Assembly (NCBI GenBank): GCA_963805975.1
Contig: CAWDVR010000004.1
Location: 525,069 to 589,068 of the forward strand
Source: an uncultured Acidobacteriota bacterium
GTDB taxonomy: Bacteria > Acidobacteriota > Thermoanaerobaculia > Multivoradales > SZUA-115
Reading direction: 5' to 3'
DNA length: 64,000 bases
Position 1 is the first letter of the stretch; every line of letters begins with the position of its first letter. Both the position numbers and the translations under genes were made by a program. Positions 41,586 to 61,391 of the stretch are shown here, one piece after another. The notes under the pieces are model-generated. The model saw only the letters and a list, made by a program, of their open reading frames with translations, was not told the DNA's origin and searched no databases.

Positions 41586-41855
41586 AGAACGCCTCCAGTC
41601 GCGGATTCTTACCAGGCATACGAAGATGGGGACTGGTTCGGTTCGAGCTCGCAATGCCCTGGGAGGCGCGCAGCGTTACACACGAGTAGGTACCTGGAAC
41701 TCCCACGAAATCCCTTAAATCACTGCCACTGTTGACTTTGGAGTCGGACTGAGTATGTTCTTGTCCCATGAGCTACGCCCGAGTTGCGCGCCCACTGCAT
41801 GCCCCTCGCATGCCGTGGAGCGTGCCCGAAGGCGGCCTCGAACAGGGAGGAGAGC

Positions 41856-43088: not shown

Positions 43089-43250
43089 GGATGCCCAGGT
43101 CCAACCAACGCGCTCTAGCAGCCCGTGGGCCGCCTGGAAGCGATGTCTGCTTCGAAGACCGCGGCCCCCAAGCCGCACCCAGAAACCAAGCGGGCCGACC
43201 GAGTGCGTGAACACCCGGCCGACCCTAGCCGACCATGGAGCCGTAACCCC

Positions 43251-43688
43251 ATGACCGACCGAGAGCAGTCTACCGCTGCCGCAATACCTCTACCCGATCC
43301 CCCTCCACCCCCCGAGGAGCCGCCCTCGCCGCCTTCGCCCTTGGATGCCTGGGAGGAGCTCCAGCCCATCCGAGAGACGTTCCTCCACCACGTGGGCAAC
43401 GCCGAGACTCAGCAGGCTCTCCGCGCGATTGGCGATTACTTCTACCAGGCCGTTCTCGAATGGCGGAACTTCCCCGACGCGGAAACACCGATCATCCTGC
43501 TGGAGCTCGAAGCCGTGGCCAAGGACGTGCGCTATCTCCAGGGCTTTCTGCACCACACGGTGGCCGACGACGGCCGGGGCACTCTGGCCGATGCCCGGTA
43601 CGAGCGCTGGCTCAAGGTGAAGGCCGAGGAGTGGGCCGACACCCTCGGCGAGGTCGCCACCGAGATCGAGAAGGCGGTGGCGGAATGA
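43251..43688 (+). CDS. hypothetical island protein (Pro-rich N-terminus, helical C-terminus)
   Basis: ORF with PLPDPPPPPEEPPSPPSP followed by a helical region. An alternative GTG start at 43125 is possible. Confidence 0.4.
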   Translation: MTDREQSTAAAIPLPDPPPPPEEPPSPPSPLDAWEELQPIRETFLHHVGNAETQQALRAIGDYFYQAVLEWRNFPDAETPIILLELEAVAKDVRYLQGFLHHTVADDGRGTLADARYERWLKVKAEEWADTLGEVATEIEKAVAE

Positions 43689-44511
43689 AGCCCGCCTGCC
43701 GGAGGTCCGAGCGCCTCCAGCGACCCACCTAGAAACACTCTCTACGCCGCCCGGGCCTCCAGGAAACAGGAGAGCCCGGCGGCTTCCCCCAGCTCTCCGA
43801 AACACGACCTGTCGGACCACTGGAGGCCACCTGAGGACGCGCTGCCGGAGGGAGGGGACTCGCGAGGCCCGCCCCAAGCTGCGGCTGGAGTGGCCGTCCC
43901 TCGCAGACTCGGGTACGCGCCAGGCGCTCCGCACGCCCCACGCCGGCGGCCCCCCTCACCTCGGCCCTGCCGCCGTCCTGGGGCGTGCTGTGGGTCGCTG
44001 TCCGGGAATGGCCATTCCCGGACCTGTCGCTCGGCCAGCCTAGCCTTGGCCCTCGCTGTGCGAGGGCTTGGACATAACGCGTGGCGCTATGTCAACTTGG
44101 GCGGGGTGTCAGGGCCTGCGGCCGGCCCCGGCTTCGGCATCTCGCCGGACACTCTATGTCAGTGTTTGTTCGCGGATTCTGAGTCAGGATCAGCAGAGTC
44201 GCTCTAAGCTCAAAGGATCTATTTACGCCGGCTTGATCGAGTGGCCTATCGGGCCTAGATTGACGGCATACGCTTAGCATGCGGTCTGGCGGACGACAGA
44301 AGGCTAGTTAGCGGACTAGCCCGACAGGGCGATCCTGACTCGCGGCGGGGCGAAGATGTCAGGGGGCGAGAACTATCCTCGCCCGAACTCGGTCCGTGTC
44401 GCAGTCACCCAACGGGTTAGCATCAGTAGCGGAACGCGCGTTCTGCGGTTCTGTCTGCTGCAGGCCCCGAGTTGGCCGACCTTTGCGATTCGAGACGATC
44501 GAACGATTCCC

Positions 44512-44703
44512 CTACCGGTCCTTGTTGCCCTTGCGGTACTTGTCGCCAGCCGCCTTATCTGCCCCATCCTTACTGACGCCTTTTCCAGAGTAGGTTGCGC
44601 CCCCTTTGTGGATCGTAGTCTTGTGAGCTTCGCCGATTCCCGTCCCGAGGAACGACGCGCTCATACGGCTGACCTTGTCCGGGCGACTACCCTTTTTGCT
44701 CAT
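44512..44703 (-). CDS. small basic Gly/Lys-rich protein (KGG-repeat stress-protein-like?)
   Basis: 63-aa ORF with a strong AAGGAGG Shine-Dalgarno 7 nt upstream of ATG. Sequence is rich in K/G/D with HKGGATYSGKG. Confidence 0.45.
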   Translation of the reverse strand: MSKKGSRPDKVSRMSASFLGTGIGEAHKTTIHKGGATYSGKGVSKDGADKAAGDKYRKGNKDR

Positions 44704-44790
44704 GGAATCCTCCTTTGATCACCGGCCGAGGGTATCACCCTCTCTGAGGCTGTGGCTTGCTGGCCACCGCTTTCTTAGACCGCTCACTTC

Positions 44791-45366
44791 TCATCGCAGT
44801 ATGGCAATTCGGGCTACAGACGCGACCAAGCTGCCGGCGCCAACCGCGATGGGTACCCACCGCTCAAGAACGGCACGCACTGAAAGAACTCGGAAGTGCT
44901 GATCGATCTCGGCACGAAAGAGCCGTGTGAACTCAGCGCGCTTCCCGCCCAGCCAGACCTCGAACTCTTCAGGATTCTCGTCTGGTTCCGGCGCGAGATT
45001 CGTGTACTGAGCGGCTAGCCTTGCGGCGGAACTTGAAAAGACACGCTCGCGGTCCATGGCCCAAGCCTTTAGATCGGCCGTGCTGTAGATCCAGAATGCC
45101 GTCAGTAAGTAGATCTGCACCGCGCAGAGAACTCCAAGCAGTCTGCCGGTATCACCGGCCGAGAGTTCGACGCCCAATGCATCGATCCTGGAGGGGATCA
45201 CCCCTCCAACCGCGACCACGAGTTGCGTAACGCTGACGGTTAGCAATGCCCGCCTCTCTTTGCGCGACTCCTCTGACAGAGGATCTACGAGGGCCCTCGC
45301 CTCAGTGATTTCGGCCCGTTCTTCCTTTTCCCAGATCTTCGGCATCGGTTCCTCATTGCCGGCCAA
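44791..45366 (-). CDS. hypothetical membrane protein (two predicted transmembrane helices), island cargo
   Basis: 191 aa. Transmembrane segments LLTVSVTQLVVAVGGVI and LLGVLCAVQIYLLTAFWIY. Lies 25 nt downstream of the preceding cargo gene on the same strand. Confidence 0.5.
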   Translation of the reverse strand: MAGNEEPMPKIWEKEERAEITEARALVDPLSEESRKERRALLTVSVTQLVVAVGGVIPSRIDALGVELSAGDTGRLLGVLCAVQIYLLTAFWIYSTADLKAWAMDRERVFSSSAARLAAQYTNLAPEPDENPEEFEVWLGGKRAEFTRLFRAEIDQHFRVLSVRAVLERWVPIAVGAGSLVASVARIAILR

Positions 45367-45391
45367 CGGCTACCCGTCTGATCGCGTGGCG

Positions 45392-46246
45392 TCAGCCGCT
45401 CGCTCCAGCCGGTTGATTGGGCATCTTTAGGGCGCCCTTCTCTTCAGGCCAAGCTCGCTCAAACCAAGAATAGTGAGCTCCGTCCGGATCCTCGAAGTCT
45501 TCGCACGCCACCCAGATCTCCGCCTCGGGCCTCCTCGCTAGGCTCGCGACCAAGGCTCTCCACCAGGCTTCCCCGGCGTGTGCAACGGAGCCTTGCGGAT
45601 CAAGCAGCACGACTTGGCGATCGTTGCTGTACGCCGCAAACTTTTTCATGGCCGAGGCAAGGAGTCTCTCGAGCTCAGCTGTGAGCTCCGCGGGAATCGG
45701 CCTCGGCGCCTGCCACATCTCCAGCGGCAGCAGGAATCTCACGCTGGTCTCGTGGGCGTACTCATCAAGATCTGATTCGCGAAGGTGCCGCAGACTCCAG
45801 TTCGGCTGGCCCCTCTTCTCGATCCCCTGGCCAGCCTCCAGAACCGACCAGTGCTCTGCAACGATTCGTGCCATCTGCCCCACCGTCTCCTCAATCTCCG
45901 CTCTCCGAGTAGGCCGATCGCCGGATATTGCGAGCTCATAAGGGCCATCGAGCACGGCAGTTGGGAGAGCTGCACGAAGGGCACCAATCAGGGCATGATC
46001 TGACGAATGTCGGACTACGTACTCGGCCGGCCACACAAGGCACTTCCGCTCGATAACCATCCGACCCCTGCATCGGTCGCAGTACAGTGCTTCAGGCTGG
46101 GGCGTATCCCGGATCCGTATGTCGAGACAAGTGACGTGCTCATACGCAGAGCCCTCGACATCGTTAAGCTGTTCGACTAAGGGCTGAACGCGCCAGAACT
46201 CGCAACCGCCACTCTCGGGTAAACAGCTCATTAGTCCCCCACGCAC
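45392..46246 (-). CDS. hypothetical protein with N-terminal Cys cluster, island cargo
   Basis: 284-aa ORF in the lower-GC region. N-terminal C...C / CxxC arrangement (CLPESGGCEFW...CDRCRGRMVIERKC). No recognisable family. Confidence 0.45.
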   Translation of the reverse strand: MRGGLMSCLPESGGCEFWRVQPLVEQLNDVEGSAYEHVTCLDIRIRDTPQPEALYCDRCRGRMVIERKCLVWPAEYVVRHSSDHALIGALRAALPTAVLDGPYELAISGDRPTRRAEIEETVGQMARIVAEHWSVLEAGQGIEKRGQPNWSLRHLRESDLDEYAHETSVRFLLPLEMWQAPRPIPAELTAELERLLASAMKKFAAYSNDRQVVLLDPQGSVAHAGEAWWRALVASLARRPEAEIWVACEDFEDPDGAHYSWFERAWPEEKGALKMPNQPAGASG

Positions 46247-46821
46247 GTCGCGCCCAAATCAGTGCTCTGCATTGGACGGTCCAGGCCTCCAGGATCCTTG
46301 AGATCCTCACTTGTTCGTCGAGGTCCTAGAGGGGTTAGGGCTATGTCCATGCGAATCGATTTCGGATGCCAGTACTTAGCAGCATTCTACGCCTACTTGA
46401 ATAAGAGTCAACGAGGCCGAGAGCCCTGGCTTGGTGCCTCGCCCCAAGACCCCGCCTGAGCTCGCTATCGCTCGGCTCTTCCGGCTGCATGAAGAGCGAC
46501 TGAAATACGGTTCACATTTGAACCTTGGTCTCTCTGTCTCACCTCTGGTACCTCTTTGCCCCATGCGCGGAGCCTGGATACCCAACCTCTCGGAGCTTGT
46601 CCGTTCAGCCCTCTTGGAGCGTCCCTCTCAGCGACCGCGGGGGGCCGAGGACGAATCTCGCCCCCTACAGCAAGCTCCTGCGTCCAGCCTCCTCGCCGTC
46701 GGTCGGTCGCTGCGAGTCAACTTCTTGCCGCCGCCTGGGCTCCGAAGAGGAGCCACCGGCAGCAAAGCATTGCCTTGGAGGGTAAGCGACGGATTTCTCC
46801 TCTGGCTCGGGCTCACCGTTC

Positions 46822-46953
46822 CTGACGACGAAGCAAGCCGCCGCGTACCTGCGCCTGGAGCCCAGCACGCTCGAGAGCTGGCGTTCCGTCGGAGGCGGCC
46901 CTGTGTTCCACAAGCTCGGCGGGCGCATCTACTACACCCGCGCCGACCTCTAG
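46822..46953 (+). pseudogene. AlpA/excisionase-family HTH (MerR-like) ORF lacking a canonical start; possibly degenerate xis
   Basis: Translation (F)LTTKQAAAYLRLEPSTLESWRSVGGGPVFHKLGGRIYYTRADL matches the excisionase/AlpA HTH_17 pattern. An in-frame TAA lies about 13 codons upstream of the HTH with no ATG/GTG/TTG between (only a CTG at 46822). The ORF stops right after the conserved RADL. Confidence 0.45.
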
Positions 46954-47116
46954 GCTTGGATTGAGTCCCGGCGTTGCCGATCGACTGCCGAGCACTGGGC
47001 GAGAAGGTCAAGGGATCGTCCTACCGAGCGCTCCGGCTTCCTCGGTCGAACCTCGAAACCGTAACGGTCGGGTGCTGCCGGCCGGTGCCGCTCCGAAGGA
47101 CTCGGAGGAGTCGGCC

Positions 47117-50100
47117 TCACCGCCGCAGGCGTACGCGGGCCTCCTCGCCTTCTGCCAGCACGTCTCGAATCCAGTGACCTGCCCGCTGCGCGATGCTGCG
47201 CCCGAGAGACAAGCTCCAGGTCACGGCGATGTCGAAGGCACGGGGAGCAGCTTCCGCCGAAGCGCGAGCCAGGTTGCCCAAGTGGGAGGCTGCCGCATCG
47301 GGTGGCAATCCACGACTGGAGGCGACCTCGACCCAGGCCGCTCGCCAGGCCAGCTCTGAGACGTCCCGTGGCGGCCGGCCGGGCTCGGGAAGCTCTGCGA
47401 AGGCACGCTGTTGGCCGTCGAGGTGCCGGAGCCAGGTCACGGCCTCGGCCGAGTTGGCGAAGAGCCTGACGGCCTCCTCTGGCCGCAGAGCCTCGCCTCC
47501 GGCGAGCCGCTTCGCCCGTTCCAGGATCTCGGGGGTCAACCGCGCCAGCGCGTCGAGGCCGGCGCGCGGGTCCTCGGTCGGCCTGGCCATGGGCAGTGTG
47601 ATTCGGTGAGCGGGGATCTCGATCAGGAGAGCCGCATTCAGCCGGCGCAGGGCCTCGGGGGAGAGGTCCCCGGCAGCAACCCGCGAGGTGATCTCCGCCA
47701 ACCGCTCGCGGGCCGTGGCCGATTGGATGGCGAGGGCCTCTTCCACGGCTGCCCGCTCCGAAGACTCGACCCGCCACCAGCCGTAGCCGCGAAGCGCCTC
47801 GGCAGGCTCCTGGCGCGTGAGCTCACGGAGCTTCTGCTCCGCACTCGCCGGCCGGGCCTCTCGCGCTTCCGCGCGCTCCAGTAGGAGCTGGGCGACGGTT
47901 CGCTCCTGCAACGACTCCACGGCTTCCGGCCAGCGCTGGGCAAGCCCTCCTTCTGCGCGCAGCCTCGTCCAGTGCGCCTCCAGCTCGCCGAGGTGGGCGC
48001 GACACTCGGCGACGGAAGTCGAGGCGCCTGCCGGCGCCTGGGGCGAAAGCCCAAGCTGGATCAAGAGCCGCGCTTCCCGCCGAATCAATCGCTCGTAAGC
48101 GTTCCAGGTCTCGTCGGGCCGCTCGCGTTCCAGGAGTGCCCAGCCGAAGCGCTCTCGATGGAGGGAGAGCTGTACCAAGGCCAGCCGCGAGTACGCATGC
48201 TCGGCCTGCTCCATCTCTCCCCGAGCGAGACTGTAGGTGTGAGCGAGCGCCTGATAGGCGGAGATCCTCTCCAGTGACGGGGCCGCTTCGATGCTCGCCG
48301 CGGCCGTCTCCACCCGCTGCCAAGCCGAAAACATCTTCCCGCGCGCATCCTCGAAGGCTTGCCGAGCCTCGCGAAGCCTGCCGGCAAGCTCGCCCTCGAC
48401 TACCAGCAACCGGTCTCCAGCCTCCCGCGATCCTCCTGGCTCCCGGGCCAGTGCTTCGGCGATCACCTCCCGATTGACCCTCTGGGCTCGTGCGAGAAAG
48501 TCGTCCACGGGCTCGTAGGTCCCAGCGGCGCCTGGGTCGTGAGGAGACCGCCGCTCTGGAAGTGACAAACGAGCTTCGATGCCGCCCAGACGGCCCGGAG
48601 ATGGAAAGTCAACGCGGGAGTAGTGGAGCGGGATCTCCGCGCGAGCGAGAGGCGCTTCGAGGCGTGGAGTGTCCAAACGTCGTAGCCGCTCGTGTAGATC
48701 CTCGCGGCGTTCGCTGCGCAGCCCGTCGAGCCAGGGCCGCGACGCCGAGAACGGCTCCTCCCGTACCTCGGCAAGCCTCACTCGGACCCGCTCGCCAGCC
48801 GCTTCGAACGAGGTTCCGGGGAGTCGGATGGCATCTCGGAATATGCCCCGCGGCTCTGCGATGCCGAAGCGGTCCGCGAGGCCCTGGCGCAACGCCTGCT
48901 CCTCGTCCTGCGAGAGGGCCTGATGGCTTCGTAGCCACAGGTCATAGCGCTCGCCCGCACGAACCAGGACGGCCGGCTCGAAGCCATGATGGCGCAGAGT
49001 GACCACCTGCTCGGCGGTCAAGTCGCGAAAGGCCACCCTGCGGGACCGGTCCTCGCCGATCCGCCGCGCCAGAATCGCAGCCGCTCCCGAGCGCTCTGCC
49101 CGGCGGGCCTCGGTGAGCGCCTGTTGGAGGGTCAGGCTGCCCCGCGATGGGTCGAGCAAGCGAGCCTCGACCCGCTGCAAACCCTCTGCGGCCTCCTTGG
49201 GGCTCAAGGGCAGCACGATGTAGCTTCCTCCCGGCATGGAGCGGTCCGTGCGAAGCCAGTCGAGCGAGACGAGCTGCCGGGCCGGCAGCTCCGGCCGTTG
49301 GTTGAGCTGCCGCAGATCCTCGGCGCCGTCCGGCTCGTGTTGCAGAGCCTTGCGAAGCCTCCGAGGGCGGGAGCCCTGCTCGGGTGAGCCTTGGGAGGGA
49401 GCACTACCTGCCAGACGAAGCACCTGCTCCCGGTCGCGACCGGGATCGTAGGCGAGCTGGAAGGTGGAGACGAGCTTGCCTGCGCGGAAGGCTCGACCGA
49501 GCTGCGACCCCTTGAAGGCTATGCCATCGCGCGAGAAGGAGATCCCTCTTAGCTCACCATCCTTGTCCAAGAGTACGTGCGTCGAAAACCCTCGGGCTCG
49601 TAACGTCGCCAGAAACTCAGCAAGGGTCCGTGCGTCCCTCGCCACCTGGGCCACTTCCACCTGAAACACGGCCCGCATCGACTCCTCACCCTGCGCGGCG
49701 CGCTTCATCTCGCCTTGGCTGGGACTCTTGAGGAACGCCGCCTCGGGCGGTTCGACTCGCACGAGGTTCCATCGGTTCTCGATCTCGCGGGCGATCCGTA
49801 CACAGCGCAGCTTGTCGAAAGCCTCGGAGATTGGCTGGCCCTCCCAGGTCGTCGGTGTGGTCACGAGGTGCACGTGGTCGTTGTCGGTGTCCTTGTGGAG
49901 GAAGGCCACGTAGGGCGCTTCGCCGTAGCCCATCCTTTGGAGGAAGAAACGCACCGCCTCTCGCATCTCGTCGTCCGGCCGATGCTCGCCGGTCGCGTAC
50001 GAGAGGACGAAATGCTTCACGAACTGCTTCTTCCTGGACCGATAGGTACTGTTGACATCCGTGATCCAGCTCGCCCACTCGCTGGGGGTGGAGCCTGGGA

Positions 50101-50200
50101 TGTTGGCGTCCAAGAGAAAGGCGTTGGGTCGTGCCGTGCGCCCAAGGTAGTCGATCAGCCGCCGAGGCTGCGAGCCCACCTTGCACAGCTTCACGATCAC
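47117..50200 (-). CDS. MobA/VirD2-family relaxase (mobilisation nuclease) with ~700-aa C-terminal extension
   Basis: N-terminal relaxase domain (FVKHFVLSYATGEHRPDDEM...APYVAFLHKDTDNDHVHLVTT) including the His-rich metal-binding motif. 1027 aa. Start overlaps the mobC stop. Confidence 0.8.
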   Translation of the reverse strand: MIVKLCKVGSQPRRLIDYLGRTARPNAFLLDANIPGSTPSEWASWITDVNSTYRSRKKQFVKHFVLSYATGEHRPDDEMREAVRFFLQRMGYGEAPYVAFLHKDTDNDHVHLVTTPTTWEGQPISEAFDKLRCVRIAREIENRWNLVRVEPPEAAFLKSPSQGEMKRAAQGEESMRAVFQVEVAQVARDARTLAEFLATLRARGFSTHVLLDKDGELRGISFSRDGIAFKGSQLGRAFRAGKLVSTFQLAYDPGRDREQVLRLAGSAPSQGSPEQGSRPRRLRKALQHEPDGAEDLRQLNQRPELPARQLVSLDWLRTDRSMPGGSYIVLPLSPKEAAEGLQRVEARLLDPSRGSLTLQQALTEARRAERSGAAAILARRIGEDRSRRVAFRDLTAEQVVTLRHHGFEPAVLVRAGERYDLWLRSHQALSQDEEQALRQGLADRFGIAEPRGIFRDAIRLPGTSFEAAGERVRVRLAEVREEPFSASRPWLDGLRSERREDLHERLRRLDTPRLEAPLARAEIPLHYSRVDFPSPGRLGGIEARLSLPERRSPHDPGAAGTYEPVDDFLARAQRVNREVIAEALAREPGGSREAGDRLLVVEGELAGRLREARQAFEDARGKMFSAWQRVETAAASIEAAPSLERISAYQALAHTYSLARGEMEQAEHAYSRLALVQLSLHRERFGWALLERERPDETWNAYERLIRREARLLIQLGLSPQAPAGASTSVAECRAHLGELEAHWTRLRAEGGLAQRWPEAVESLQERTVAQLLLERAEAREARPASAEQKLRELTRQEPAEALRGYGWWRVESSERAAVEEALAIQSATARERLAEITSRVAAGDLSPEALRRLNAALLIEIPAHRITLPMARPTEDPRAGLDALARLTPEILERAKRLAGGEALRPEEAVRLFANSAEAVTWLRHLDGQQRAFAELPEPGRPPRDVSELAWRAAWVEVASSRGLPPDAAASHLGNLARASAEAAPRAFDIAVTWSLSLGRSIAQRAGHWIRDVLAEGEEARVRLRR

Positions 50201-50598
50201 GGCGACTCTCCAGCCGCCCTCTCGCCACCCAGCACGGCGAAGATTGTCTCCAGGAGCAGCCGAAGCCTCTCGAGGGTCGGAGCCAGGGCCTCCGGCGCCC
50301 GATGGGTGTAGGTGAGGACGAGAAGTTGGTTGAGATTGTTGCCCAGCCGGTTGAGCTCCCCGATCAGGCGCAGGTCGACCGCGGAGCGTGCGGGGCGCAC
50401 TCGGTGTCGCAGTCCTAGCTCTCGGAGGTAGGAGGAGACCGCCAACCCTGCCGCAGTAGCCGACTCCTCAAGCGTAGCGAGCTCCGTGGGTGAGAGCCGA
50501 ACTCGACAACCGAGGTTGCGCCGCTCAGGCTCGGGCAACTGGGGCCGGCCTCGCTGGCGAGGTCGGACACCCGATCCTTGGCGCAGTGTGTCGCTCAA
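50197..50598 (-). CDS. mobC: MobC-family relaxosome accessory protein
   Basis: Signature (LIGELNRLGNNLNQLLVLTY) plus N-terminal RHH-like region (VRLSPTELATLEESA). 133 aa. Confidence 0.8.
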   Translation of the reverse strand: MSDTLRQGSGVRPRQRGRPQLPEPERRNLGCRVRLSPTELATLEESATAAGLAVSSYLRELGLRHRVRPARSAVDLRLIGELNRLGNNLNQLLVLTYTHRAPEALAPTLERLRLLLETIFAVLGGERAAGESP

Positions 50599-50639
50599 CT
50601 CGTCGCCACTCCGGGACCGGGGCAGGAGCGCTCCTCACT

Positions 50640-50830
50640 TTGCGGCTGGTCAAATTTACGGCCGTAAACGCGGCCCGATAGTCGAGGGGTCCAGCCTGAA
50701 AAATTTTGGCCCCAAAATTCGCACAAGTACCTCAGCGAGAGCTGTTCGGTTAGGACTCGCCGGCGTGAAGTTGAAATCGGTCCGCTTCCGTTTACGGTTC
50801 GTAAATCTGCGCCATCGTCTCGGCGAGCGC
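50640..50830. promoter_or_regulatory. candidate oriT / mob promoter region with two related palindromes
   Basis: Perfect 14-bp palindrome TTTACGGCCGTAAA (50664-50677) and related GTTTACGGTTCGTAAAT (50790-50807) immediately upstream of mobC, the usual oriT position. Confidence 0.45.
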
Positions 50831-51255
50831 GGTGGGTCAGAACTCGCCGCAGAAGCCTCTTCCCGAGCGGAGCGAGCGCTTCCGGGGGTCCAGGGGCTCG
50901 CCCCTGGCAAGCGGCCCGTGAGCTTGCGAGCGGGGGTTTTTCGTGCAACGAAAAAACAGCTTGCTCGTCTGCTCCGGATGCGCTCACGAAGGCAGGCTAC
51001 GGTGGCTTCGACAAACCGCGCAACTGTCGGACCGAGGAAGAAAGAAGAGGTTGTATCGAGCTCCTGGAAACCTGATGAATTTCACTCCGTCGAGGAAGCG
51101 GCAGGCACCTCGCTCCAAGGATGCTTACGGGCGCTGAAGACCAATTGAGAGGAGACGGTGGCCCCCAGGCCCGACCCTTGGTGTGTAACTAATGGGCAGC
51201 AATGCAGCACGCACGTGGAGGTGGGTTGGTTTGGATTTGCTAGCATGCGGCAATC

Positions 51256-54200
51256 GTGAACAACCTGGCGGCGGCAGAGAGGCGGGTCGAAGATGCGTTG
51301 CGCACCAGACTGGAACATCTGGACCTCGGAGACCTAGCCCTAGAGCGCTTACCCACGCGCCTGCGAGAGCTCACTCATCTCCGAGTCTTGGCTCTGGGAT
51401 GCCTCCGACTGAGAGACGATGGGACTTTCGAGTGGGACAGCGATAGACAGCCTCCGTCCTTTTCCGACCTGTCAGCCTTGGCCGGGCTCCAAGGACTTCA
51501 GAGTCTGAACCTCAGCTACTGCGGGGGCGTGACGGACCTGTCTGCCTTGGCCGGGCTCCAAGGCCTCCAGAGGGTGGACCTCAGCTACTGCGGGGGCGTG
51601 ACGGACCTGTCTGTCTTGGCCGGGCTCCAGGGCCTCCAGAGCCTGAACCTCAGCTTCTGCAAGGGCGTGACGGACCTGTCTGTCTTGGCCGGGCTCCCAG
51701 GCCTCCAGAGCCTGTACCTCAGCGGCTGCGAGGGCGTGACGGACCTGTCTGTCTTGGCCGGGCTCCCAGGCCTCCAGAGCCTGTACCTCAGCGGCTGCGA
51801 GGGCGTGACGGACCTGTCTGTCTTGGCCGGGCTCCCAGGCCTCCAGAGCCTGGACCTCAGCGGCTGCGAGGGCGTGACGGACCTGTCTGTCTTGGCCGGG
51901 CTCCAAGGCCTCCAGAGCCTGAACCTCAGCGGCTGCGAGGGCGTGACGGACCTGTCTGTCTTGGCCGGGCTCCAAGGCCTCCAGAGCCTGTACCTCAGCG
52001 GCTGCGCGGGCGTGACGGACCTGTCTGTCTTGGCCGGGCTCCAAGGACTCCAGAGCCTGAACCTCAGCTCCTGCGCGGGCGTGACGGACCTGTCTGTCTT
52101 GGCCGGGCTCCAAGGACTCCAGAGCCTGAACCTCAGCTTCTGCAAGGGCGTGACGGACCTGTCTGTCTTGGCCGGGCTCCCAGGCCTCCAGAGCCTGTAC
52201 CTCAGCGGCTGCGAGGGCGTGACGGACCTGTCTGTCTTGGCCGGGCTCCCAGGCCTCCAGAGCCTGTACCTCAGCGGCTGCGAGGGCGTGACGGACCTGT
52301 CTGTCTTGGCCGGGCTCCCAGGCCTCCAGAGCCTGGACCTCAGCGGCTGCGAGGGCGTGACGGACCTGTCTGTCTTGGCCGGGCTCCAAGGCCTCCAGAG
52401 CCTGAACCTCAGCGGCTGCGAGGGCGTGACGGACCTGTCTGTCTTGGCCGGGCTCCAAGGCCTCCAGAGCCTGTACCTCAGCGGCTGCGCGGGCGTGACG
52501 GACCTGTCTGTCTTGGCCGGGCTCCAAGGACTCCAGAGCCTGAACCTCAGCTCCTGCGCGGGCGTGACGGACCTGTCTGTCTTGGCCGGGCTCCAAGGAC
52601 TCCAGAGCCTGAACCTCAGCTTCTGCAAGGGCGTGACGGACCTGTCTGTCTTGGCCGGGCTCCAAGGCCTCCAGAGCCTGGACCTCAGCTACTGCCGGGG
52701 CGTGACGGACCTGCCTGGCTTGGCCGGGCTCCAAGGCCTCCAGAACCTGGATCTCAGCTTCTGCCGGGGCGTGACGGACCTGTCTGTCTTGGCCGGGCTC
52801 CAAGGCCTCCAGAGCCTGGACCTCAGCTACTGCCGGGGCGTGACGGACCTGTCTGCCTTGGCCGGGCTCCAAGGCCTCCAGAGCCTGAACCTCAGCTCCT
52901 GCCCGGGCGTGGCGGACCTGTCTGCCTTGGCCGGGCTCCAAGGCGTCCAGAGCCTGAACCTCAGCGGCTGCGAGGGCGTGACGGACCTGTCTGCCTTGGC
53001 CGGGCTCCAAGGCGTCCAGAGCCTGAACCTCAGCGGCTGCGAGGGCGTGACGGACCTGTCTGCCTTGGCCGGGCTCCAAGGCCTCCAGAGCCTGAACCTC
53101 CGTAACTGTAAGGGCGTGACGGACCTGTCTGGCTTGGCCGGGCTCCAAGGCCTCCAGAACCTGAACCTCAGCTCCTGCCCGGGCCTGATGGACCTGTCTG
53201 CCTTGGCTGGGCTCCAAGGCCTCCAGAGCCTCGACTTCAGCGACCGCCAGGGTGTGACGGACCTGTCTGCCTTGGCCGGGCTCCAAGGCCTCCAGAGCCT
53301 GAACCTCAGCGACTGCCTGGCCGTGACGGACCTGTCTGCCTTGGCTGGGCTCCAAGGCCTCCGGAGCCTGAACCTCTACTCCTGTCGGCCGCCGATCGAA
53401 AACACCGTTCTTCGGAACCTGGTGGCAAGCCCTCGGCTAGCGAGCCTCATCTGCGACGAGGGGGAGAGCATGCCGCGAGAGGTTCTCTCGCATGAGTCCG
53501 ATGAAGACTGTCTCCCACGTCTCCGTAGCTTCTTCGCTGAGATCGACCGAGGCGCAGAGGCGGAGCGGGAAGTGAAAGTGATCCTGCTAGGCAACGGCTG
53601 TGTTGGGAAGACTCAGCTCTGTCGTCGGTTTCGCGATCAGCCTTTCGACGAAGCGATTGGATCGACTCACGGAGTCCAGATCTGGCGGGACGAGCTCCGA
53701 CTCCCATCGCGTGGCGAGCCAGAGAATGCATTTCAGGTGAACTGGTGGGACTTCGGCGGACAGGACATCTACCACGGCACGCATGCGCTTTTCCTACGCA
53801 GTCGCGCCGTGTTCCTGCTTCTCTGGACCCCACAGCTCGAGAACCGCGACGAATACACGGAGCAGGGCATCCCGCTACGCAACCAACCCCTTGCCTACTG
53901 GCTGGACTACGTCCGTACTCTGGCTGGCGACGGCAGCCCCGTGATTGTGGTGCAAAGCAAGTGCGACACCTTCAAGCACGAGCTCTCAGCTCCGAATAGG
54001 CCCGAGGGACTCGAATTCTTCCGCTGTTGCGCCTACAGTGCCGTCACGGATTTTGGCAGAGAAGTTCTCGAAGTCCAGCTCCGCGAAGCGGTGCGCTTCC
54101 AGCTTGAGAAAACCGGCTCTCTAGCCATCGGACACGCTCGCGCTGAGGTTCGCCGCCGGCTCTATCAGATGCGCAGCGAGGACCAGGAACAAAGACCAGA

Positions 54201-55743
54201 GGATCGTCGGCACCGCACTCTAACTCTGGACGAGTTCCGCAGCCTCTGCGAGGAGGTGGGCGGCATTGCCTCGTGGGAGCATGCCCTCGACTACTTCCAC
54301 CACACCGGCGTGGTCTTCTATCGCCCGGATCTCTTCTCCAATCGCATTCTCCTCGATCAGGACTGGGCGCTCGAAGCGATCTACACCGTATTTCATCGCG
54401 GCCGAGCCGCGCGCTGGCTGCGGGACTCTGGGCGCTTCAGCCGCGAGGATCTCTCGATGATGGCCTGGCAACAGCATTCGGTGGAGGAGCAGAAGCTCTT
54501 CCTCGGGCTGATGGAGAGCTGCGGCGTGTGCTTCGCATGCGGTACCGCTTCCCTGGGGGAGACGATCTATGCGGCGCCGGACCTGTTACCACTGTTTTCG
54601 GCTGTGCAAGGGCGGCTCTTCGGCTGGAAGGACGACCCCCAAGCACCGTCCTTGTGGCTCGAGTATCAGTTTTTTCACCCCGCAGTGATTCGCGGCCTGA
54701 TGAGCGCGATCGGCCGCCAGGCGGGAGAGGCCGCCGAGTATTGGAAGTATGGGTTCCGGCTCTGGGATCGCAAGCGAGATGCTCAGATCCTGATCCAGCA
54801 GCATGACACGAGCACCAACGAGACACCGGGACAGGGAGCCCTGGAGCTGACGGCGCAGGGCCGTGATGCACTCGGCCTTCTCCGCGGGATCTGGAAGGAG
54901 ATCCGGCAACGTCAGATTGGCGAGCCGCCCGAGGAGTTCCTGAGCCTGGAGGGCGTGACCGTTTCGCGCAGCGCCATGGCCAACGCCATGGAGGGCCAGA
55001 CGCACGCGACGGATGGACGAGTGGTGCCTGTTGCGCCGTTCGCAGCCTTCTTCGAGGACCGCGAGCCCGAAGCCACCGGCGGGAGACGGCCCACCGAACT
55101 CCGGCTCGACTTCGATCCCGGTATCCCTCCAGCGGGGGAGAAACTGCCGGAGGTGTTCATCTCCTACGCTTGGGGGGACGACAGCATGGAAGGACGTGTG
55201 CGGACCGAGGTGGTTGAGCGTCTGTGCGCGGCGTTGAAGATGGATGGCTTTGCACCGGTGCGGGACCGAGAGGCTCTGCGGCCGGGCGAGCTCATCTCTG
55301 CCTTCATGAAGCAAGCGGCAAGAGCCAACCACGTCGTGGCCGTGATCAGCGACAAGTACCTGCGCTCACCGTACTGCATGTTCGAGATCCACAGGATCTA
55401 CCAGCAGTGCGAAGCCGAGGCGGAGAGGCTGGCAAGGCGCGTCCTGCCGATCGTCTTACCCGACGTTCGGCTGGCGACTTTCGAGGAGCGAGCCCCGTAT
55501 CTGCGCCTGTGGTCTCGGCGTGAGAAGACGCTCGGGAAGCTCATCCGCGACCCGGAGCTGCATCCCAGTGAGGCCTCCTGGACCGAGTACCGCCTTGTTC
55601 ATGACTTCGCCCACCACGTCGACTCAATCCTCGGCTTCATCCAAGATGTTCTGATGCCCCGGAGGCTTGAGGTTCAGCTCGAGAATGGCTTCGAAGCCGT
55701 GAGGGAGGCCCTACGAAGGCGGATCGCGAGGGATGGAGCGTAA
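51256..55743 (+). CDS. ROCO-family protein: N-terminal LRR array - Roc GTPase - COR - C-terminal TIR domain
   Basis: 1495 aa. About 27 tandem 23-aa LRRs (consensus DLSVLAGLQGLQSLNLSGCEGVT). Roc GTPase with P-loop GNGCVGKT, switch II WDFGGQ and G4 SKCD. About 350-aa COR-like region. TIR domain (EVFISYAWGDD...VAVISDKYLRSPYCMFEIHRIY) with the Glu at the position of the catalytic Glu of TIR NADases. Confidence 0.85.
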   Translation: MNNLAAAERRVEDALRTRLEHLDLGDLALERLPTRLRELTHLRVLALGCLRLRDDGTFEWDSDRQPPSFSDLSALAGLQGLQSLNLSYCGGVTDLSALAGLQGLQRVDLSYCGGVTDLSVLAGLQGLQSLNLSFCKGVTDLSVLAGLPGLQSLYLSGCEGVTDLSVLAGLPGLQSLYLSGCEGVTDLSVLAGLPGLQSLDLSGCEGVTDLSVLAGLQGLQSLNLSGCEGVTDLSVLAGLQGLQSLYLSGCAGVTDLSVLAGLQGLQSLNLSSCAGVTDLSVLAGLQGLQSLNLSFCKGVTDLSVLAGLPGLQSLYLSGCEGVTDLSVLAGLPGLQSLYLSGCEGVTDLSVLAGLPGLQSLDLSGCEGVTDLSVLAGLQGLQSLNLSGCEGVTDLSVLAGLQGLQSLYLSGCAGVTDLSVLAGLQGLQSLNLSSCAGVTDLSVLAGLQGLQSLNLSFCKGVTDLSVLAGLQGLQSLDLSYCRGVTDLPGLAGLQGLQNLDLSFCRGVTDLSVLAGLQGLQSLDLSYCRGVTDLSALAGLQGLQSLNLSSCPGVADLSALAGLQGVQSLNLSGCEGVTDLSALAGLQGVQSLNLSGCEGVTDLSALAGLQGLQSLNLRNCKGVTDLSGLAGLQGLQNLNLSSCPGLMDLSALAGLQGLQSLDFSDRQGVTDLSALAGLQGLQSLNLSDCLAVTDLSALAGLQGLRSLNLYSCRPPIENTVLRNLVASPRLASLICDEGESMPREVLSHESDEDCLPRLRSFFAEIDRGAEAEREVKVILLGNGCVGKTQLCRRFRDQPFDEAIGSTHGVQIWRDELRLPSRGEPENAFQVNWWDFGGQDIYHGTHALFLRSRAVFLLLWTPQLENRDEYTEQGIPLRNQPLAYWLDYVRTLAGDGSPVIVVQSKCDTFKHELSAPNRPEGLEFFRCCAYSAVTDFGREVLEVQLREAVRFQLEKTGSLAIGHARAEVRRRLYQMRSEDQEQRPEDRRHRTLTLDEFRSLCEEVGGIASWEHALDYFHHTGVVFYRPDLFSNRILLDQDWALEAIYTVFHRGRAARWLRDSGRFSREDLSMMAWQQHSVEEQKLFLGLMESCGVCFACGTASLGETIYAAPDLLPLFSAVQGRLFGWKDDPQAPSLWLEYQFFHPAVIRGLMSAIGRQAGEAAEYWKYGFRLWDRKRDAQILIQQHDTSTNETPGQGALELTAQGRDALGLLRGIWKEIRQRQIGEPPEEFLSLEGVTVSRSAMANAMEGQTHATDGRVVPVAPFAAFFEDREPEATGGRRPTELRLDFDPGIPPAGEKLPEVFISYAWGDDSMEGRVRTEVVERLCAALKMDGFAPVRDREALRPGELISAFMKQAARANHVVAVISDKYLRSPYCMFEIHRIYQQCEAEAERLARRVLPIVLPDVRLATFEERAPYLRLWSRREKTLGKLIRDPELHPSEASWTEYRLVHDFAHHVDSILGFIQDVLMPRRLEVQLENGFEAVREALRRRIARDGA
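51472..53360 (+). repeat. tandem 69-bp coding repeats (LRR units) organised in a 483-bp higher-order unit
   Basis: Marker CAGCTTCTGCAAGGGCGTGACGG recurs at 51651, 52134 and 52617 (483-bp spacing, 7 LRRs per unit), with near-identical DNA between copies. The antisense ORFs 51472-53355 and 51585-52628 are artefacts of this repeat. Confidence 0.9.
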
Positions 55744-56157
55744 GTTCACCTTCCGCCGGACGCGATGAGAACGGGCCTTGATGACACCCTGCTGCCCTAC
55801 TGAAGGGTCGCCAGAGAAGTAGACATCGACCGCGACTTGAGAACCCTCAAGATCGCATGCTGAGCGCATGCCGATGTCGCGCGGCAAGAGAATGCCTTCG
55901 CCGCCATCTCAGGAAGTTATAGATTCGATGGGGGCTTAGCGTGGCCCTCATCCGAGCCGTTCATCTCATACTGAGATCGCAGCGTTACCCGAAGGGGGCG
56001 TCGAGCACCGCATCAGGGCCTTGCGAGCTCGAACCGAACCGCCAGACCGGGTGTGCTTGGTTCCCGCGCCGGCCCTCGTGTACGCTTTCCATGCATGGCC
56101 GTGCATGAACGTTTTTCTTTCCCTCTTTGCCGTCTATCTACCCTGGAGGCCCTCACC

Positions 56158-59495: not shown

Positions 59496-60053
59496 GGTCG
59501 GGCTCCTCGAAGCGTCGCGCGGCGGCGCTGCGGACTAGAACGAGCGGTGGGAGTGCGCCGTGAAAAGGCGGCGGTTTTCAGTGGGTGCGAAACCCACCCG
59601 GCAACTGGTCGCTCCAGCCGGTAGCAATCGGAGCGGTGGTGGAGGCAACGAAGCCATCGAAGCCTTCGATGAAGAGGGTCGCCTTGGGCGATCCGGCGAC
59701 CCTGCAGGCCGAAACGTGAGTGAACGCCGAGCAAGCCTCGAAACGTTCGATGTGGGAGCCGACCCGTTTTCCATTCGGGGAAGGCCGTGGTTCCTGGACG
59801 GGATGAGCGACAGCATCCAGGGGTCCCACCGGGGTACTGGCGTCGGCATGCAGGGAAGAGGGAACCGAGCGCAACACGGGAAGCCCCAGCGGTGCCGGAG
59901 CGTGTCCGGCAACCGACAGCCCGCGAGGGTCGGGTTGGGCCGTCTGGGGTGGCGGGGAGGCCCGTAGTAGCGAGGAAGCCGGGTAATGCCGGTGGAGCGA
60001 AGGGGCCTCAGGGCAGGGTCAACGCAGGACGTAGCGAGAGCCGGAGATTGGCG

Positions 60054-61379: not shown

Positions 61380-61391
61380 TGTCCTGTCCGA

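What the first reader, a model, noticed from the sequence alone, without database searches (positions are those of the whole stretch)
51472..53360. LRR sensor region is a near-identical 69-bp tandem array with a duplicated 483-bp (7-LRR) higher-order unit
At the DNA level the LRR array is almost perfectly periodic. The motif CAGCTTCTGCAAGGGCGTGACGG recurs at 51651, 52134 and 52617, exactly 483 bp apart. The intervening 7-repeat blocks are essentially identical (FCK/GCE/GCE/GCE/GCE/GCA/SCA order repeated). Variation is concentrated at a few positions (L/P, Y/N/D, E/A/K, S/F/G). Such nucleotide identity implies very recent unequal-crossover expansion or ongoing concerted evolution. Repeat number is likely to vary between strains, which would be a cheap way to diversify a sensor surface. 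The region is also prone to assembly collapse, so the true repeat count may differ from what is shown.
Basis: seen in the sequence. Interest (0 to 1): 0.6.

Follow-up and report, generated by a model that had tools for sequence, protein, structure and literature searches.

The report
Freshly duplicated LRR array in ROCO-TIR gene
The repeat is real: 28 nearly identical 69-bp leucine-rich repeats, including an error-free 483-bp block duplication, form the probable ligand-binding arm of a bacterial GTPase–TIR protein. The whole family looks like a fast-evolving, untested immune-type receptor.

Summary
Window 51466-53397 holds 28 head-to-tail 69-bp units (93% match, no indels), in frame inside one 1495-aa ORF (51256-55743, +). 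Units 4-10 and 11-17 are identical: 51634-52180 equals 52117-52663 with no mismatch. The ORF reads N-cap, 28 LRRs, Roc GTPase, COR, then a TIR domain with its catalytic Glu. It is a ROCO protein with a TIR effector, carried on an integrase/relaxase island.

In 80 related loci from at least six phyla, 66/69/72-bp LRR arrays sit directly upstream of Roc-COR-TIR. They have 2-21 copies at 62-98% match; the window's array is the longest. Repeat number differs even between relatives 85-92% identical in Roc-COR-TIR.

Variation falls on the concave-face positions of LxxLxLxx. In 21 of 22 arrays, non-synonymous diversity is higher there than elsewhere, and it usually exceeds synonymous diversity.

Best reading: unequal recombination or slippage, plus diversifying selection, acting on the sensor arm of an NLR-like single-protein receptor. 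The immune function is inferred, not shown. Strain-level copy-number variation and assembly correctness could not be tested. This is a new variant of a known kind, of moderate interest.

The parts
51256..55743 (+). Single ORF of 1495 aa (GTG start): N-cap, 28 LRRs, Roc, COR, TIR.
   Evidence: ORF list and translation. Pfam: LRR_4 1.8e-108, Roc 3e-20, COR-A 4.4e-15, TIR_2 1.2e-14. The N-terminus aligns with those of homologues, which read MQENLREAERRIE....
51256..51465 (+). N-terminal cap: a helix plus irregular, degenerate LRR-like units (aa 1-70).
   Evidence: The sequence is conserved in homologues. The 69-bp register is still detectable at 62-76% identity. AF2 confidence here is low.
51466..53397 (+). 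Tandem array of 28 x 69 bp, giving 28 LRRs of 23 aa with consensus LQSLNLSGCEGVTDLSVLAGLQG.
   Evidence: TRF; unit table and distance matrix; AF2 solenoid with one 3-residue strand and one 5-residue helix per unit, pLDDT 80-92; best structural matches are the CtRoco LRR 5il7 and internalin A.
51634..52663 (+). Exact period-483 region, 2.13 copies of a 7-unit higher-order repeat. Copy A is units 4-10 (51673-52155) and copy B is units 11-17 (52156-52638).
   Evidence: Longest exact lag-483 match is 547 bp starting at 51634. There are zero differences between units 4-10 and 11-17.
51634..51697 (+). 64-bp stretch identical to 52600-52663: the interval within which the duplication junction must lie.
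   Evidence: Derived from the lag-483 mismatch positions that flank it, 51630/51633 and 52181. This is an inference.
53374..53574 (+). C-terminal LRR cap (LYSCRPPI...) and the linker to Roc.
   Evidence: The motif LxLYxCRPxxP and the following PREVLSH..CLPRLR are conserved in homologues.
53575..53967 (+). Roc G-domain: P-loop GNGCVGKT (53590-53613), switch II DFGGQ (53746-53763), G4-like QSKCD (53953-53967).
   Evidence: Pfam Roc and Ras; PDB sequence hits 4wnr 7e-22 and 3dpu/6hlu about 1e-14; motif coordinates.
54199..55150 (+). COR domain: COR-A at 54199-54585, followed by the COR-B-like region.
   Evidence: Pfam COR-A. The alignment to CtRoco Roc-COR covers query residues 57-459. Foldseek hits 6hlu_B at 1.6e-18, and LRRK1/LRRK2.
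55153..55542 (+). TIR domain. The putative catalytic Glu1377 (55384-55386) lies in SPYCMFEI.
   Evidence: Pfam TIR_2 and TIR; PADLOC bSEFIR 2.8e-9. In the alignment to the RUN1 TIR 6o0w, the Glu sits opposite the residue that is Ala in the second-ranked RUN1 chain 7s2z; I take this to be the E100A catalytic mutant, from my own knowledge of RUN1. The Glu is invariant in 21 homologues.
41669..55988 (.). Lower-GC integrated mobilisable island that carries the gene. It contains an integrase (41784-43088 +), a relaxase (47117-50200 -) and a NikA-like protein (50197-50598 -), and is bounded by the 11-bp direct repeat CGCAGCGTTAC (41669-41679 and 55978-55988).
   Evidence: Pfam; GC profile; repeat search.

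Best explanation
The array is a genuine product of very recent intragenic unequal homologous recombination or replication slippage. It lies in the LRR arm of a cytoplasmic LRR-Roc-COR-TIR (ROCO-TIR) protein.

Duplication history (inferred). An ancestral array of Cys-type 23-residue LRRs grew by nested duplications of 1, 2 and finally 7 units. The last event joined two stretches across 64 bp of perfect homology and has collected no substitution since.

What the array does (inferred). The LRR solenoid is about the size of a Toll-like-receptor ectodomain, and it is the ligand-binding arm. Homogenisation keeps the scaffold codons identical, even at synonymous sites. Residues on the concave face and the ascending loop (x5, x8 and x10 here; x3, x5, x7 and x8 across the family) stay different between units. 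Gain, loss and reshuffling of units therefore re-tile the binding surface cheaply.

How the protein would work (inferred by analogy). The analogies are the GTP-driven dimer/monomer cycle of CtRoco/LRRK2 and the known enzyme chemistry of TIR domains. Ligand binding on the LRR would relieve its inhibition of Roc-COR. The GTPase would change oligomeric state and bring the TIR domains together. They would then cleave NAD+ or make an ADP-ribose-derived signal, arresting or killing the cell. This is NLR-like, abortive-infection-type immunity with a ROCO GTPase in place of a STAND ATPase.

Shown here: the repeat anatomy, the domain identities, conservation of the catalytic Glu, the family-wide array behaviour and the island context.

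Inferred: the recombination mechanism, ligand sensing, NADase output and the immune role.
For: Recency. The exact 547-bp lag-483 identity and the nested exact duplicates.

Realness. The array is in frame, has no indels, and sits in a 4.5-kb intact ORF.

Domains. Pfam. The Roc-COR region matches CtRoco and MbRoco2 by sequence and CtRoco/LRRK1/LRRK2 by fold. The LRR model matches the CtRoco LRR and internalin A best; TLR7/8/9 ectodomains match over the whole length at TM about 0.6. The TIR domain aligns with the catalytic Glu.

Family behaviour.
- Most of the 80 loci carry 66/69/72-bp arrays directly upstream of Roc, with 2-21 copies at 62-98% match. Several show higher-order periods of 198-270 bp.
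- Long exact intra-array repeats also occur in a closed genome: Defluviicoccus vanus has 270 bp exact.
- LRR counts are 4-20 in 85 homologues against 28-29 here.
- N-terminal length differs between pairs 85-92% identical in Roc-COR-TIR.

Surface diversification.
- Entropy peaks at positions 5, 8, 7 and 3 in 23 arrays.
- Using positions fixed in advance (x2, x3, x5, x7, x8), pN on the face exceeds pN elsewhere in 21 of 22 arrays (Wilcoxon p about 1e-6).
- pN on the face exceeds array-wide pS in 20 of 22 arrays. The window gives 2.48, against 1.14 for the rest of the unit.
- Within the window, pN/pS is 1.58 over all units and 2.78 for units 3-23.

Mobility and receptor-like distribution.
- The gene is cargo of an integrase/NikA/relaxase island.
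- In five relatives it is solitary, in five different neighbourhoods.
- Six assemblies carry two paralogues.
Against: - No experiment exists for any bacterial ROCO-TIR in the literature I could search.
- PADLOC matches only the TIR part, so no known defence system is recognised.
- None of the five related neighbourhoods examined looks like a defence island.
- Counted as distinct variant codons rather than as pairs, the window's array has about 34 non-synonymous and about 10 synonymous variants. The site ratio is 2.8, so overall omega is only about 1.2 (my count). High variability at LRR 'x' positions is also what relaxed constraint would give.
- pN/pS between repeats of one gene is not a standard allelic test.
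- Many homologues have quite divergent repeats (mean unit identity 0.40-0.6), so homogenisation is not universal in the family.
- The copy number in this assembly cannot be verified.
Confidence: 0.6

Rival explanations
1. Assembly artefact. The exact 483-bp duplication, and possibly the total count of 28 units, was created or distorted by the assembler. The true array may be shorter or longer.
For: The repeat is exact for 547 bp, longer than short reads. In relatives, 12 of 80 loci break inside the array at a contig end, so such arrays do defeat assemblers. The window's array is an outlier in length and in exact-repeat length.
Against: Collapse, not expansion, is the usual artefact. The array keeps frame with no indel inside an intact 1495-aa ORF. 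The block sits in a graded series of 0-, 1- and 2-nt-different neighbouring units that looks like real duplication history. Comparable exact repeats exist in a closed isolate genome (L062, 270 bp) and in a long MAG chromosome (L043, 186 bp at lag 726).
Confidence: 0.12
2. Neutral repeat dynamics in a scaffold. The LRR is a generic protein-interaction or autoinhibitory arm, as in CtRoco. Slippage expands it without selective consequence, and the variable positions are simply the unconstrained 'x' residues of any LRR. On this view there is no sensing of foreign ligands and no diversifying selection.
For: The variant-codon count gives an overall omega of about 1.2, not clearly above 1. LRR x positions are variable in all LRR proteins (general knowledge). 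Many homologues have divergent, apparently stable repeats. No defence-island context was seen.
Against: Face-position pN exceeds array-wide pS in 20 of 22 independent arrays, while the remaining codons are under purifying selection in most arrays. Arrays were independently homogenised and expanded in several phyla. A catalytically competent-looking TIR effector is invariantly fused. Several genomes carry paralogues.
Confidence: 0.2
3. Self/non-self or developmental cell-death switch rather than anti-phage defence. The protein would act like fungal HET/NWD allorecognition NLRs, or like the conflict systems of multicellular bacteria, with the LRR recognising a polymorphic bacterial or mobile-element protein.
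For: The repeat regime matches that described for fungal NLRs: high internal conservation, variable unit number and hypervariable surface sites (PMC4986451). Roc-COR GTPases were noted in conflict systems of multicellular prokaryotes (PMC7159879). The gene rides on a mobilisable island, where it could also serve the element.
Against: There is no partner gene and no polymorphic neighbour in any locus examined. Nothing distinguishes this reading from anti-phage sensing with the present data.
Confidence: 0.12
4. Secreted or surface internalin-like adhesin, or a TIR effector aimed at a eukaryotic host. This is what the 'internalin A' database labels suggest.
For: JGI labels many homologues 'internalin A'. 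The LRR model superposes on InlA.
Against: The N-terminus is polar, with no hydrophobic signal-like segment. Pfam finds no internalin cap, Ig-like or anchoring domains. The LRR is fused to a cytoplasmic-type GTPase and a TIR domain. The hosts are free-living soil and water phyla.
Confidence: 0.03

Closest known systems
Chlorobium tepidum Roco (CtRoco; PDB 5il7, 3dpu, 6hlu, 8r4b) and other prokaryotic LRR-Roc-COR proteins
   Same: The order is the same: N-terminal LRR, then Roc, then COR. There are sequence and fold matches, so the GTP-controlled dimer/monomer switch is probably shared.
   Different: CtRoco has no TIR effector. A 2019 review states that all prokaryotic Rocos then identified have only an LRR in front of RocCOR (PMC6337361). 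CtRoco is not described as having near-identical DNA-level repeats. The physiological function of prokaryotic Rocos is unknown.
Brown-algal LRR-ROCO candidate immune receptors (Zambounis 2012; Teng 2024, PMC11378527)
   Same: These are LRR-Roc-COR proteins with LRR units of 23 aa. The units are shuffled or duplicated one at a time and are under diversifying selection. They are interpreted as a way to generate binding diversity.
   Different: There the unit of shuffling is a 72-bp exon, helped by alternative splicing, and no TIR is present. Here it is an intron-less tandem array shaped by recombination or slippage, with a C-terminal TIR. The same paper lists TPR-ROCO-TIR in the red alga Chondrus.
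Fungal NLRs with highly internally conserved repeats (Podospora NWD/HET-E/HET-D; Dyrka 2014, PMC4986451)
   Same: Repeats are about 85% identical within a gene. There is concerted evolution by unit reshuffling, repeat-number polymorphism, and a few hypervariable positions on the binding surface. They are also hard to assemble without long reads (PMC12222747, listed).
   Different: Those repeats are WD40, ANK or TPR; the paper found no LRR. The NTPase is a STAND type (NACHT/NB-ARC), not Roc-COR, and the organisms are eukaryotes.
Plant TIR-NB-LRR (TNL) receptors such as RUN1/RPV1
   Same: The logic is the same three-part one: LRR sensor, NTPase switch, TIR enzyme. The TIR domain is most similar by sequence to the RUN1 TIR among solved structures, with the catalytic Glu aligned.
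   Different: The domain order is reversed (TIR at the C-terminus), and the switch is a Roc-COR GTPase instead of NB-ARC. Homology is limited to the TIR and, generically, to the LRR.
Bacterial NLR-like anti-phage proteins (Avs, bNACHT)
   Same: These are single large proteins with a repeat sensor, an NTPase and an effector. They are often on mobile elements and patchily distributed.
   Different: They use STAND ATPases. The sensors I recall for them are not LRRs, but I did not check this. No PADLOC model matches this protein beyond its TIR.

Membership tests
ROCO (Roc-COR GTPase) family | Roc G-domain of the Ras superfamily with a P-loop and switch II | tested here: met
   Pfam Roc 3e-20 and Ras 6.6e-10. 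Motifs GNGCVGKT, DFGGQ and QSKCD are present. PDB hits are 4wnr, 3dpu, 6hlu and the LRRK2 Roc domain.
ROCO (Roc-COR GTPase) family | COR domain immediately C-terminal to Roc | tested here: met
   Pfam COR-A 4.4e-15 at aa 982-1110. The alignment to CtRoco Roc-COR 3dpu spans query residues 57-459. Foldseek hits 6hlu_B at 1.6e-18.
ROCO (Roc-COR GTPase) family | GTP binding and hydrolysis coupled to a dimer/monomer cycle | not testable with these tools
   This needs biochemistry.
TIR-domain NAD+-processing enzymes | TIR fold | tested here: met
   Pfam TIR_2 1.2e-14 and TIR 1.4e-4; PADLOC bSEFIR 2.8e-9; RUN1 TIR 1.4e-3.
TIR-domain NAD+-processing enzymes | Catalytic glutamate in the (S)xWCxxE-type motif | tested here: met
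   SPYCMFE(1377)I aligns with SRWCLDE(100)L of RUN1. The second-ranked RUN1 chain (7s2z) has Ala at this column; I take it to be the E100A mutant, from my own knowledge. The Glu is invariant in 21 homologues.
TIR-domain NAD+-processing enzymes | NADase or signal-synthase activity | not testable with these tools
   This needs an enzyme assay.
NLR / STAND receptors | Central STAND NTPase (NACHT or NB-ARC) | tested here: not met
   Pfam finds Roc/Ras and COR and no NACHT or NB-ARC. The protein works like an NLR but is not one.
Sensor arrays with high internal repeat conservation (as in fungal NLRs) | Repeats of one gene about 85% or more identical to each other | tested here: met
   Mean unit identity is 0.82 and nearest-neighbour identity 0.95, rank 3 of 69 homologues. 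DNA match is 93%.
Sensor arrays with high internal repeat conservation (as in fungal NLRs) | Repeat-number polymorphism between alleles or strains | not testable with these tools
   No relative closer than 65% identity was found. Between homologues the number varies from 4 to 29.
Sensor arrays with high internal repeat conservation (as in fungal NLRs) | Positive selection at a few surface positions | tested here: inconclusive
   Face-position pN exceeds array-wide pS in 20 of 22 arrays. But these are comparisons between repeats of one gene, and the window's variant-codon count gives an overall omega of about 1.2.
Known anti-phage defence systems (PADLOC-DB 2.0) | Match of the whole protein to a system model | tested here: not met
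   There are only partial hits on the TIR region (bSEFIR, SAVED_TIR, PDC-S66).
Internalins (the label given by JGI) | Signal peptide, internalin cap, inter-repeat Ig-like domain, cell-wall anchor | tested here: not met
   The N-terminus is polar. Pfam finds no such domains. Only the LRR geometry resembles InlA.
Diversity-generating retroelement target | Template/variable repeat pair with adenine-specific changes and a DGR-type reverse transcriptase | tested here: not met
   The nearby RT (59787-61379) is a group II intron maturase with Rfam intron domains on both sides. Variable codons differ at all four bases. No dedicated search for a template repeat was made.

The most novel reading that the evidence does not exclude
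LRR-Roc-COR-TIR proteins could be a widespread, so far unrecognised class of single-protein bacterial immune or cell-death receptors. In them a ROCO GTPase (the LRRK2-type switch) replaces the STAND ATPase of NLRs. Specificity would be renewed by tandem-unit gain, loss and reshuffling plus diversifying selection on the LRR concave face. That is the bacterial counterpart of brown-algal LRR-ROCO exon shuffling and of fungal repeat-shuffling NLRs. It would give prokaryotic Roco proteins, long used only as LRRK2 models, a physiological function.
Probability: 0.4. Interest if true: 0.72.

Novelty: new variant of a known kind. Interest (0 to 1): 0.5.

Why it matters
Prokaryotic Roco proteins are the structural models for the Parkinson's-disease kinase LRRK2, yet their own function is unknown. 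This survey shows a large clade, spanning at least six phyla, that couples LRR-Roc-COR to a TIR domain with an intact catalytic Glu. Its LRR arrays expand, homogenise and diversify at ligand-face positions. That is an immune-receptor signature, and it yields a directly testable hypothesis: ligand-gated, GTPase-controlled NAD+ cleavage. It would also extend the repeat-shuffling mode of receptor diversification, known from fungi and brown algae, to bacteria and to LRRs. On the practical side, such genes are systematically broken or truncated in short-read MAGs, so they are under-annotated.

Tried and rejected
- Strain-level comparison failed. The protein search gave at best 65% identity. The exact protein is not on record. 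Two metagenome DNA scans, one with a lineage-specific wobble-degenerate pattern and one with the array's own junction sequence, returned nothing. The genome scan's best hit was 66-71% identical.
- The repeat finder output only restated the 69-bp register and did not resolve the higher-order unit. I computed lag identities instead.
- My first regex for LRR units found nothing, and a fixed-frame extraction mis-framed several arrays. Both were replaced by HMM-delimited units and motif-scored framing.
- DGR-type mutagenesis was rejected. The nearby RT belongs to a group II intron, and the variable codons are not adenine-specific.
- Phase variation by frameshift was rejected, because every unit is 69 bp (a multiple of 3) and the array has no indels.
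- The minus-strand ORFs inside the array (51472-53355 and 51585-52628) were rejected as periodic stop-free by-products.
- I looked for a conserved operon partner or defence-island context in five relatives and found none.
- Rfam finds nothing at the island's hairpin target site.
- Literature searches for bacterial ROCO-TIR or Roc-COR in phage defence found no dedicated study.
Full report
1. THE OBSERVATION

Tandem Repeats Finder reports a single array at 51466-53376: period 69, 27.7 copies, 93% matches, no indels, score 3038. In register it is 28 units from 51466 to 53397.

It has 20 matches at up to 3 mismatches, against none in shuffles.

At a lag of 483 bp the longest error-free run is 547 bp: 51634-52180 equals 52117-52663. 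The distance matrix shows units 4-10 identical to units 11-17. Unit 3 is 2 synonymous bases away from units 10 and 17. Further exact pairs are 4=5, 11=12, 18=20 and 22=23.

So the array carries nested duplications of one, two and seven units. The last event has no substitution since it happened. Its junction must lie in a 64-bp stretch (51634-51697, identical to 52600-52663) of perfect identity, which fits unequal homologous exchange or slippage. That last point is an inference.

- The 'L/P' site is Q/P.
- There is a fifth variable site, A/V/G.
- The two most variable sites carry 6 and 8 different residues.

2. WHAT THE ARRAY BELONGS TO

The array lies in frame inside one ORF, 51256-55743 (+), of 1495 aa. 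Pfam finds LRRs, Roc (aa 774-904), COR-A (982-1110) and TIR_2 (1300-1429).

The non-repeat part matches solved structures as follows:
- By sequence: Methanosarcina Roco2 (4wnr, 7e-22) and Chlorobium tepidum Roco (3dpu, 6hlu, 8r4b, about 1e-14).
- By fold: an AF2 model (pLDDT 75) hits 6hlu_B at 1.6e-18, followed by LRRK1 and LRRK2.

The G-motifs are present. The TIR part aligns best with the plant RUN1 TIR. SPYCMFE(1377)I lies opposite SRWCLDEL, and the Glu column is the one that is Ala in the second-ranked RUN1 chain (7s2z). I take that chain to be the E100A catalytic mutant, from my own knowledge of RUN1. The Glu is invariant in 21 homologues.

The LRR half folds, even from a single sequence, as a regular solenoid (pLDDT 80-92 across the repeats), with one 3-residue strand and one 5-residue helix per unit. 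Its best structural matches are the CtRoco LRR (5il7) and internalin A. TLR7/8/9 ectodomains match over the whole length at TM about 0.6.

The protein is therefore a ROCO protein with a C-terminal TIR. It is not an NLR, because it has no STAND NTPase. It is not an internalin, despite database labels: the N-terminus is polar and there are no cap or anchor domains. PADLOC recognises only the TIR portion.

3. WHERE THE VARIATION SITS

In the LRR register L1xxL4xL6xxC9x, the entropy of the 28 units is concentrated at x5 (N/D/Y), x8 (G/S/Y/F/D/N) and x10 (8 residues). Position 17 (V/A/G, in the short helix) and position 22 (Q/P) also vary. Synonymous variants are very few.

In the model, x3-L4-x5 is the β-strand and x8/x10 are in the loop that follows it. 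From general LRR geometry, that is the concave, ligand-facing side.

Pairwise pN/pS between units is 1.58 over all units and 2.78 for units 3-23. It is 6.6 at the five variable codons and 0.44 at the other eighteen. The last two figures are circular, because those codons were chosen for their variability.

Counting distinct variant codons gives about 34 non-synonymous against about 10 synonymous variants. The site ratio is 2.8, so overall omega is about 1.2 (my count). The window alone does not prove positive selection.

4. THE FAMILY

The Roc-COR-TIR part has hundreds of relatives. The best are 65% identical and come from Thermoanaerobaculia/Acidobacteriota MAGs. No near-identical sequence was found.

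A genome scan with a 21-sequence alignment returned 80 loci. They come from Acidobacteriota, Planctomycetota, Alpha-, Beta- and Gammaproteobacteria, Verrucomicrobiota, Myxococcota and others.

TRF on all 80 loci shows the following:
- 66- or 69-bp arrays, or 72-bp arrays in some Alphaproteobacteria, lie directly upstream of Roc in most loci.
- They have 2-21 copies at 62-98% match.
- Several have higher-order periods, for example 198, 204, 207, 267 and 270 bp.
- The window has the longest array.

The window also has the longest exact internal repeat. Long exact repeats do occur elsewhere: the closed Defluviicoccus vanus genome has 270 bp exact, and L043 has 186 bp exact at a lag of 726.

HMM-delimited unit counts are 4-20 in 85 homologues against 28-29 here. 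Mean unit identity within a protein ranges from 0.40 to 0.85, with a median of 0.61. The window is at 0.82, rank 3 of 69. Homogenisation is therefore frequent but not universal.

The window's units resemble most closely the first, Cys-containing 23-residue unit of homologues. Many homologues fill their interior with a 22-residue Thr-type unit instead. This points to a lineage-specific amplification. The N-cap and the C-cap (LxLYxCRP) are conserved across the family.

Pairs 85-92% identical in Roc-COR-TIR still differ in N-terminal length by 5-143 aa. Some of these differences may be truncations.

5. A NON-CIRCULAR TEST OF SURFACE DIVERSIFICATION

Across 23 well-framed arrays, the highest-entropy positions are 5, 8, 7 and 3, plus 10 in the 23-mers and 12 in the 22-mers.

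I then fixed the face positions in advance from LRR geometry (x2, x3, x5, x7, x8) and obtained:
- pN on the face exceeds pN elsewhere in 21 of 22 arrays (Wilcoxon p about 1e-6).
- pN on the face exceeds array-wide pS in 20 of 22 arrays.
- The remaining codons have pN below pS in 17 of 22 arrays.
- For the window, face pN over array-wide pS is 2.48, against 1.14 for the rest of the unit.

These are comparisons between repeats of one gene, not between alleles. They are strong evidence for position-specific diversification and only suggestive evidence for positive selection.

6. GENOMIC CONTEXT

The gene lies at the right end of a lower-GC block (about 0.58-0.69, against 0.72-0.76 in the flanks). 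The block begins with a tyrosine integrase (41784-43088) and contains a MobA/VirD2 relaxase (47117-50200, -) and a NikA-like protein (50197-50598, -).

An 11-bp direct repeat (41669 and 55978) bounds the block. Just outside the two copies lies a 27-bp inverted repeat. When the island is removed in silico, the joined flanks fold into a 117-nt hairpin of -73.9 kcal/mol.

In five relatives the gene is solitary, with unrelated neighbours and no obvious defence island. Six assemblies hold two paralogues.

7. MECHANISM

Shown:
- The repeat anatomy.
- The domain identities.
- The conserved catalytic Glu.
- The family-wide behaviour of the arrays.
- Carriage on a mobile island.

Inferred:
- The array grows and is homogenised by unequal recombination or slippage.
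- The LRR concave face binds a ligand.
- Binding releases the Roc-COR switch. CtRoco is known to cycle between dimer and monomer with GTP (PMC6337361).
- The TIR domains then assemble and consume NAD+ or make a signal.

This is NLR-like logic with a ROCO GTPase as the switch. I put the whole chain at about 0.6 for the evolutionary part plus the sensor reading, and at about 0.4 for an immune or cell-death function specifically.

8. COMPARISON WITH WHAT IS KNOWN

- A 2019 review states that all prokaryotic Rocos identified then have only an LRR in front of RocCOR (PMC6337361).
- Roc-COR GTPases are mentioned as rare components of bacterial conflict systems (PMC7159879).
- Brown-algal LRR-ROCO genes shuffle single-LRR exons under diversifying selection and are proposed as immune receptors. 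TPR-ROCO-TIR is listed for a red alga (PMC11378527).
- Fungal NLRs show the same regime: high internal repeat conservation, repeat-number polymorphism and a few selected surface positions. Their repeats are WD, ANK or TPR, and explicitly not LRR (PMC4986451).
- I found no paper on bacterial ROCO-TIR proteins or on their LRR dynamics.

The finding is therefore a new variant of a known kind.

9. WHAT REMAINS OPEN

- The assembly cannot be checked without reads. An artefact is unlikely but not excluded. The fact that 12 of 80 related loci end inside their array shows how fragile these regions are.
- Strain-level copy-number variation could not be tested.
- Function is untested.

Noticed in passing
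window 41600-56050: There is an integrated mobilisable island of about 14.3 kb with lower GC than its flanks. It contains a tyrosine integrase (41784-43088 +), a NikA-like protein (50197-50598 -), a MobA/VirD2 relaxase (47117-50200 -), several ORFs with no Pfam match (43.1-47.0 kb), and the ROCO-TIR gene as cargo. It is bounded by the 11-bp direct repeat CGCAGCGTTAC at 41669 and 55978.
   Followed up: partly
window 41636-41662 and 56014-56040: A 27-bp inverted repeat (one mismatch) lies just outside the island's two direct repeats. Joining the flanks without the island gives a 117-nt hairpin of -73.9 kcal/mol. The island therefore seems to have inserted into the loop of a long hairpin. No tRNA and no Rfam family is found there.
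   Followed up: partly
window 59579-61544: A complete-looking group II intron. Rfam finds group-II-D1D4-4 at 59579-59719 and Intron_gpII (domains V/VI) at 61390-61544. These flank an RT/maturase ORF at 59787-61379 (RVT_1 + GIIM).
   Followed up: no
window 51472-53355 and 51585-52628, minus strand: Long antisense ORFs (627 and 347 aa) lie entirely within the array. They are stop-free by-products of the 69-bp periodicity, not genes.
   Followed up: yes
L010, L029, L033, L037, L041, L046, L047, L050, L052, L054, L071, L078 (position 1-3 of each locus): In 12 of 80 related loci the LRR array runs into the contig end. Many 'Roc-COR-TIR only' database proteins of about 750-770 aa begin just after the array (for example P0003, matched in L003 at position 238). 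Short-read assemblies break here, so the family's LRR arms are under-recorded.
   Followed up: partly
L053 4918-5859, L057 4957-5900, L061 4987-5776, L078 1-472: Some alphaproteobacterial members carry 72-bp (24-residue) arrays of a different LRR class in front of the same Roc-COR-TIR module. From the TRF consensus I read them as ribonuclease-inhibitor-like (G-N-x-I-G-x-E-G-A-R-A-L). This suggests the sensor arm has been exchanged between LRR classes.
   Followed up: no
L061 9983-12197: About 1.8 kb downstream of the ROCO-TIR match in a Rhodomicrobiaceae MAG lies a second large tandem array: period 126 bp (42 aa) with 17.5 copies, and higher-order periods of 252 and 378 bp. From the period I guess it is TPR-like. 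It may be another repeat-sensor gene next door.
   Followed up: no
L002 7732-7905, L005 1468-1699, L008 8406-8628, L009 2530-2707, L012 9316-9472, L017 8269-8505: Short tandem repeats of period 84 bp (2-3 copies, 73-86% match) recur in intergenic DNA near the ROCO-TIR genes of several Acidobacteriota, often just downstream of the stop codon. Their nature is unknown, and no counterpart is seen in the window.
   Followed up: no
Assemblies DIHE01 (L010, L015), DASYKS01 (L016, L026), JAXDKG01 (L020, L022), JASLEW01 (L021, L025), JAYTAK01 (L048, L051), JBNKIW01 (L061, L078): Six assemblies carry two ROCO-TIR paralogues with different arrays. In addition, P0071 and P0097 both list a longest contig of 1,124,388 bp, so they are probably on the same contig. 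The 64-kb window holds only one copy.
   Followed up: partly
window 51466-53397 compared with 53398-55740: GC3 is 0.89 in the array against 0.75 in the rest of the gene. The repeat units use a narrower, more GC-rich codon set than the non-repeat part.
   Followed up: no
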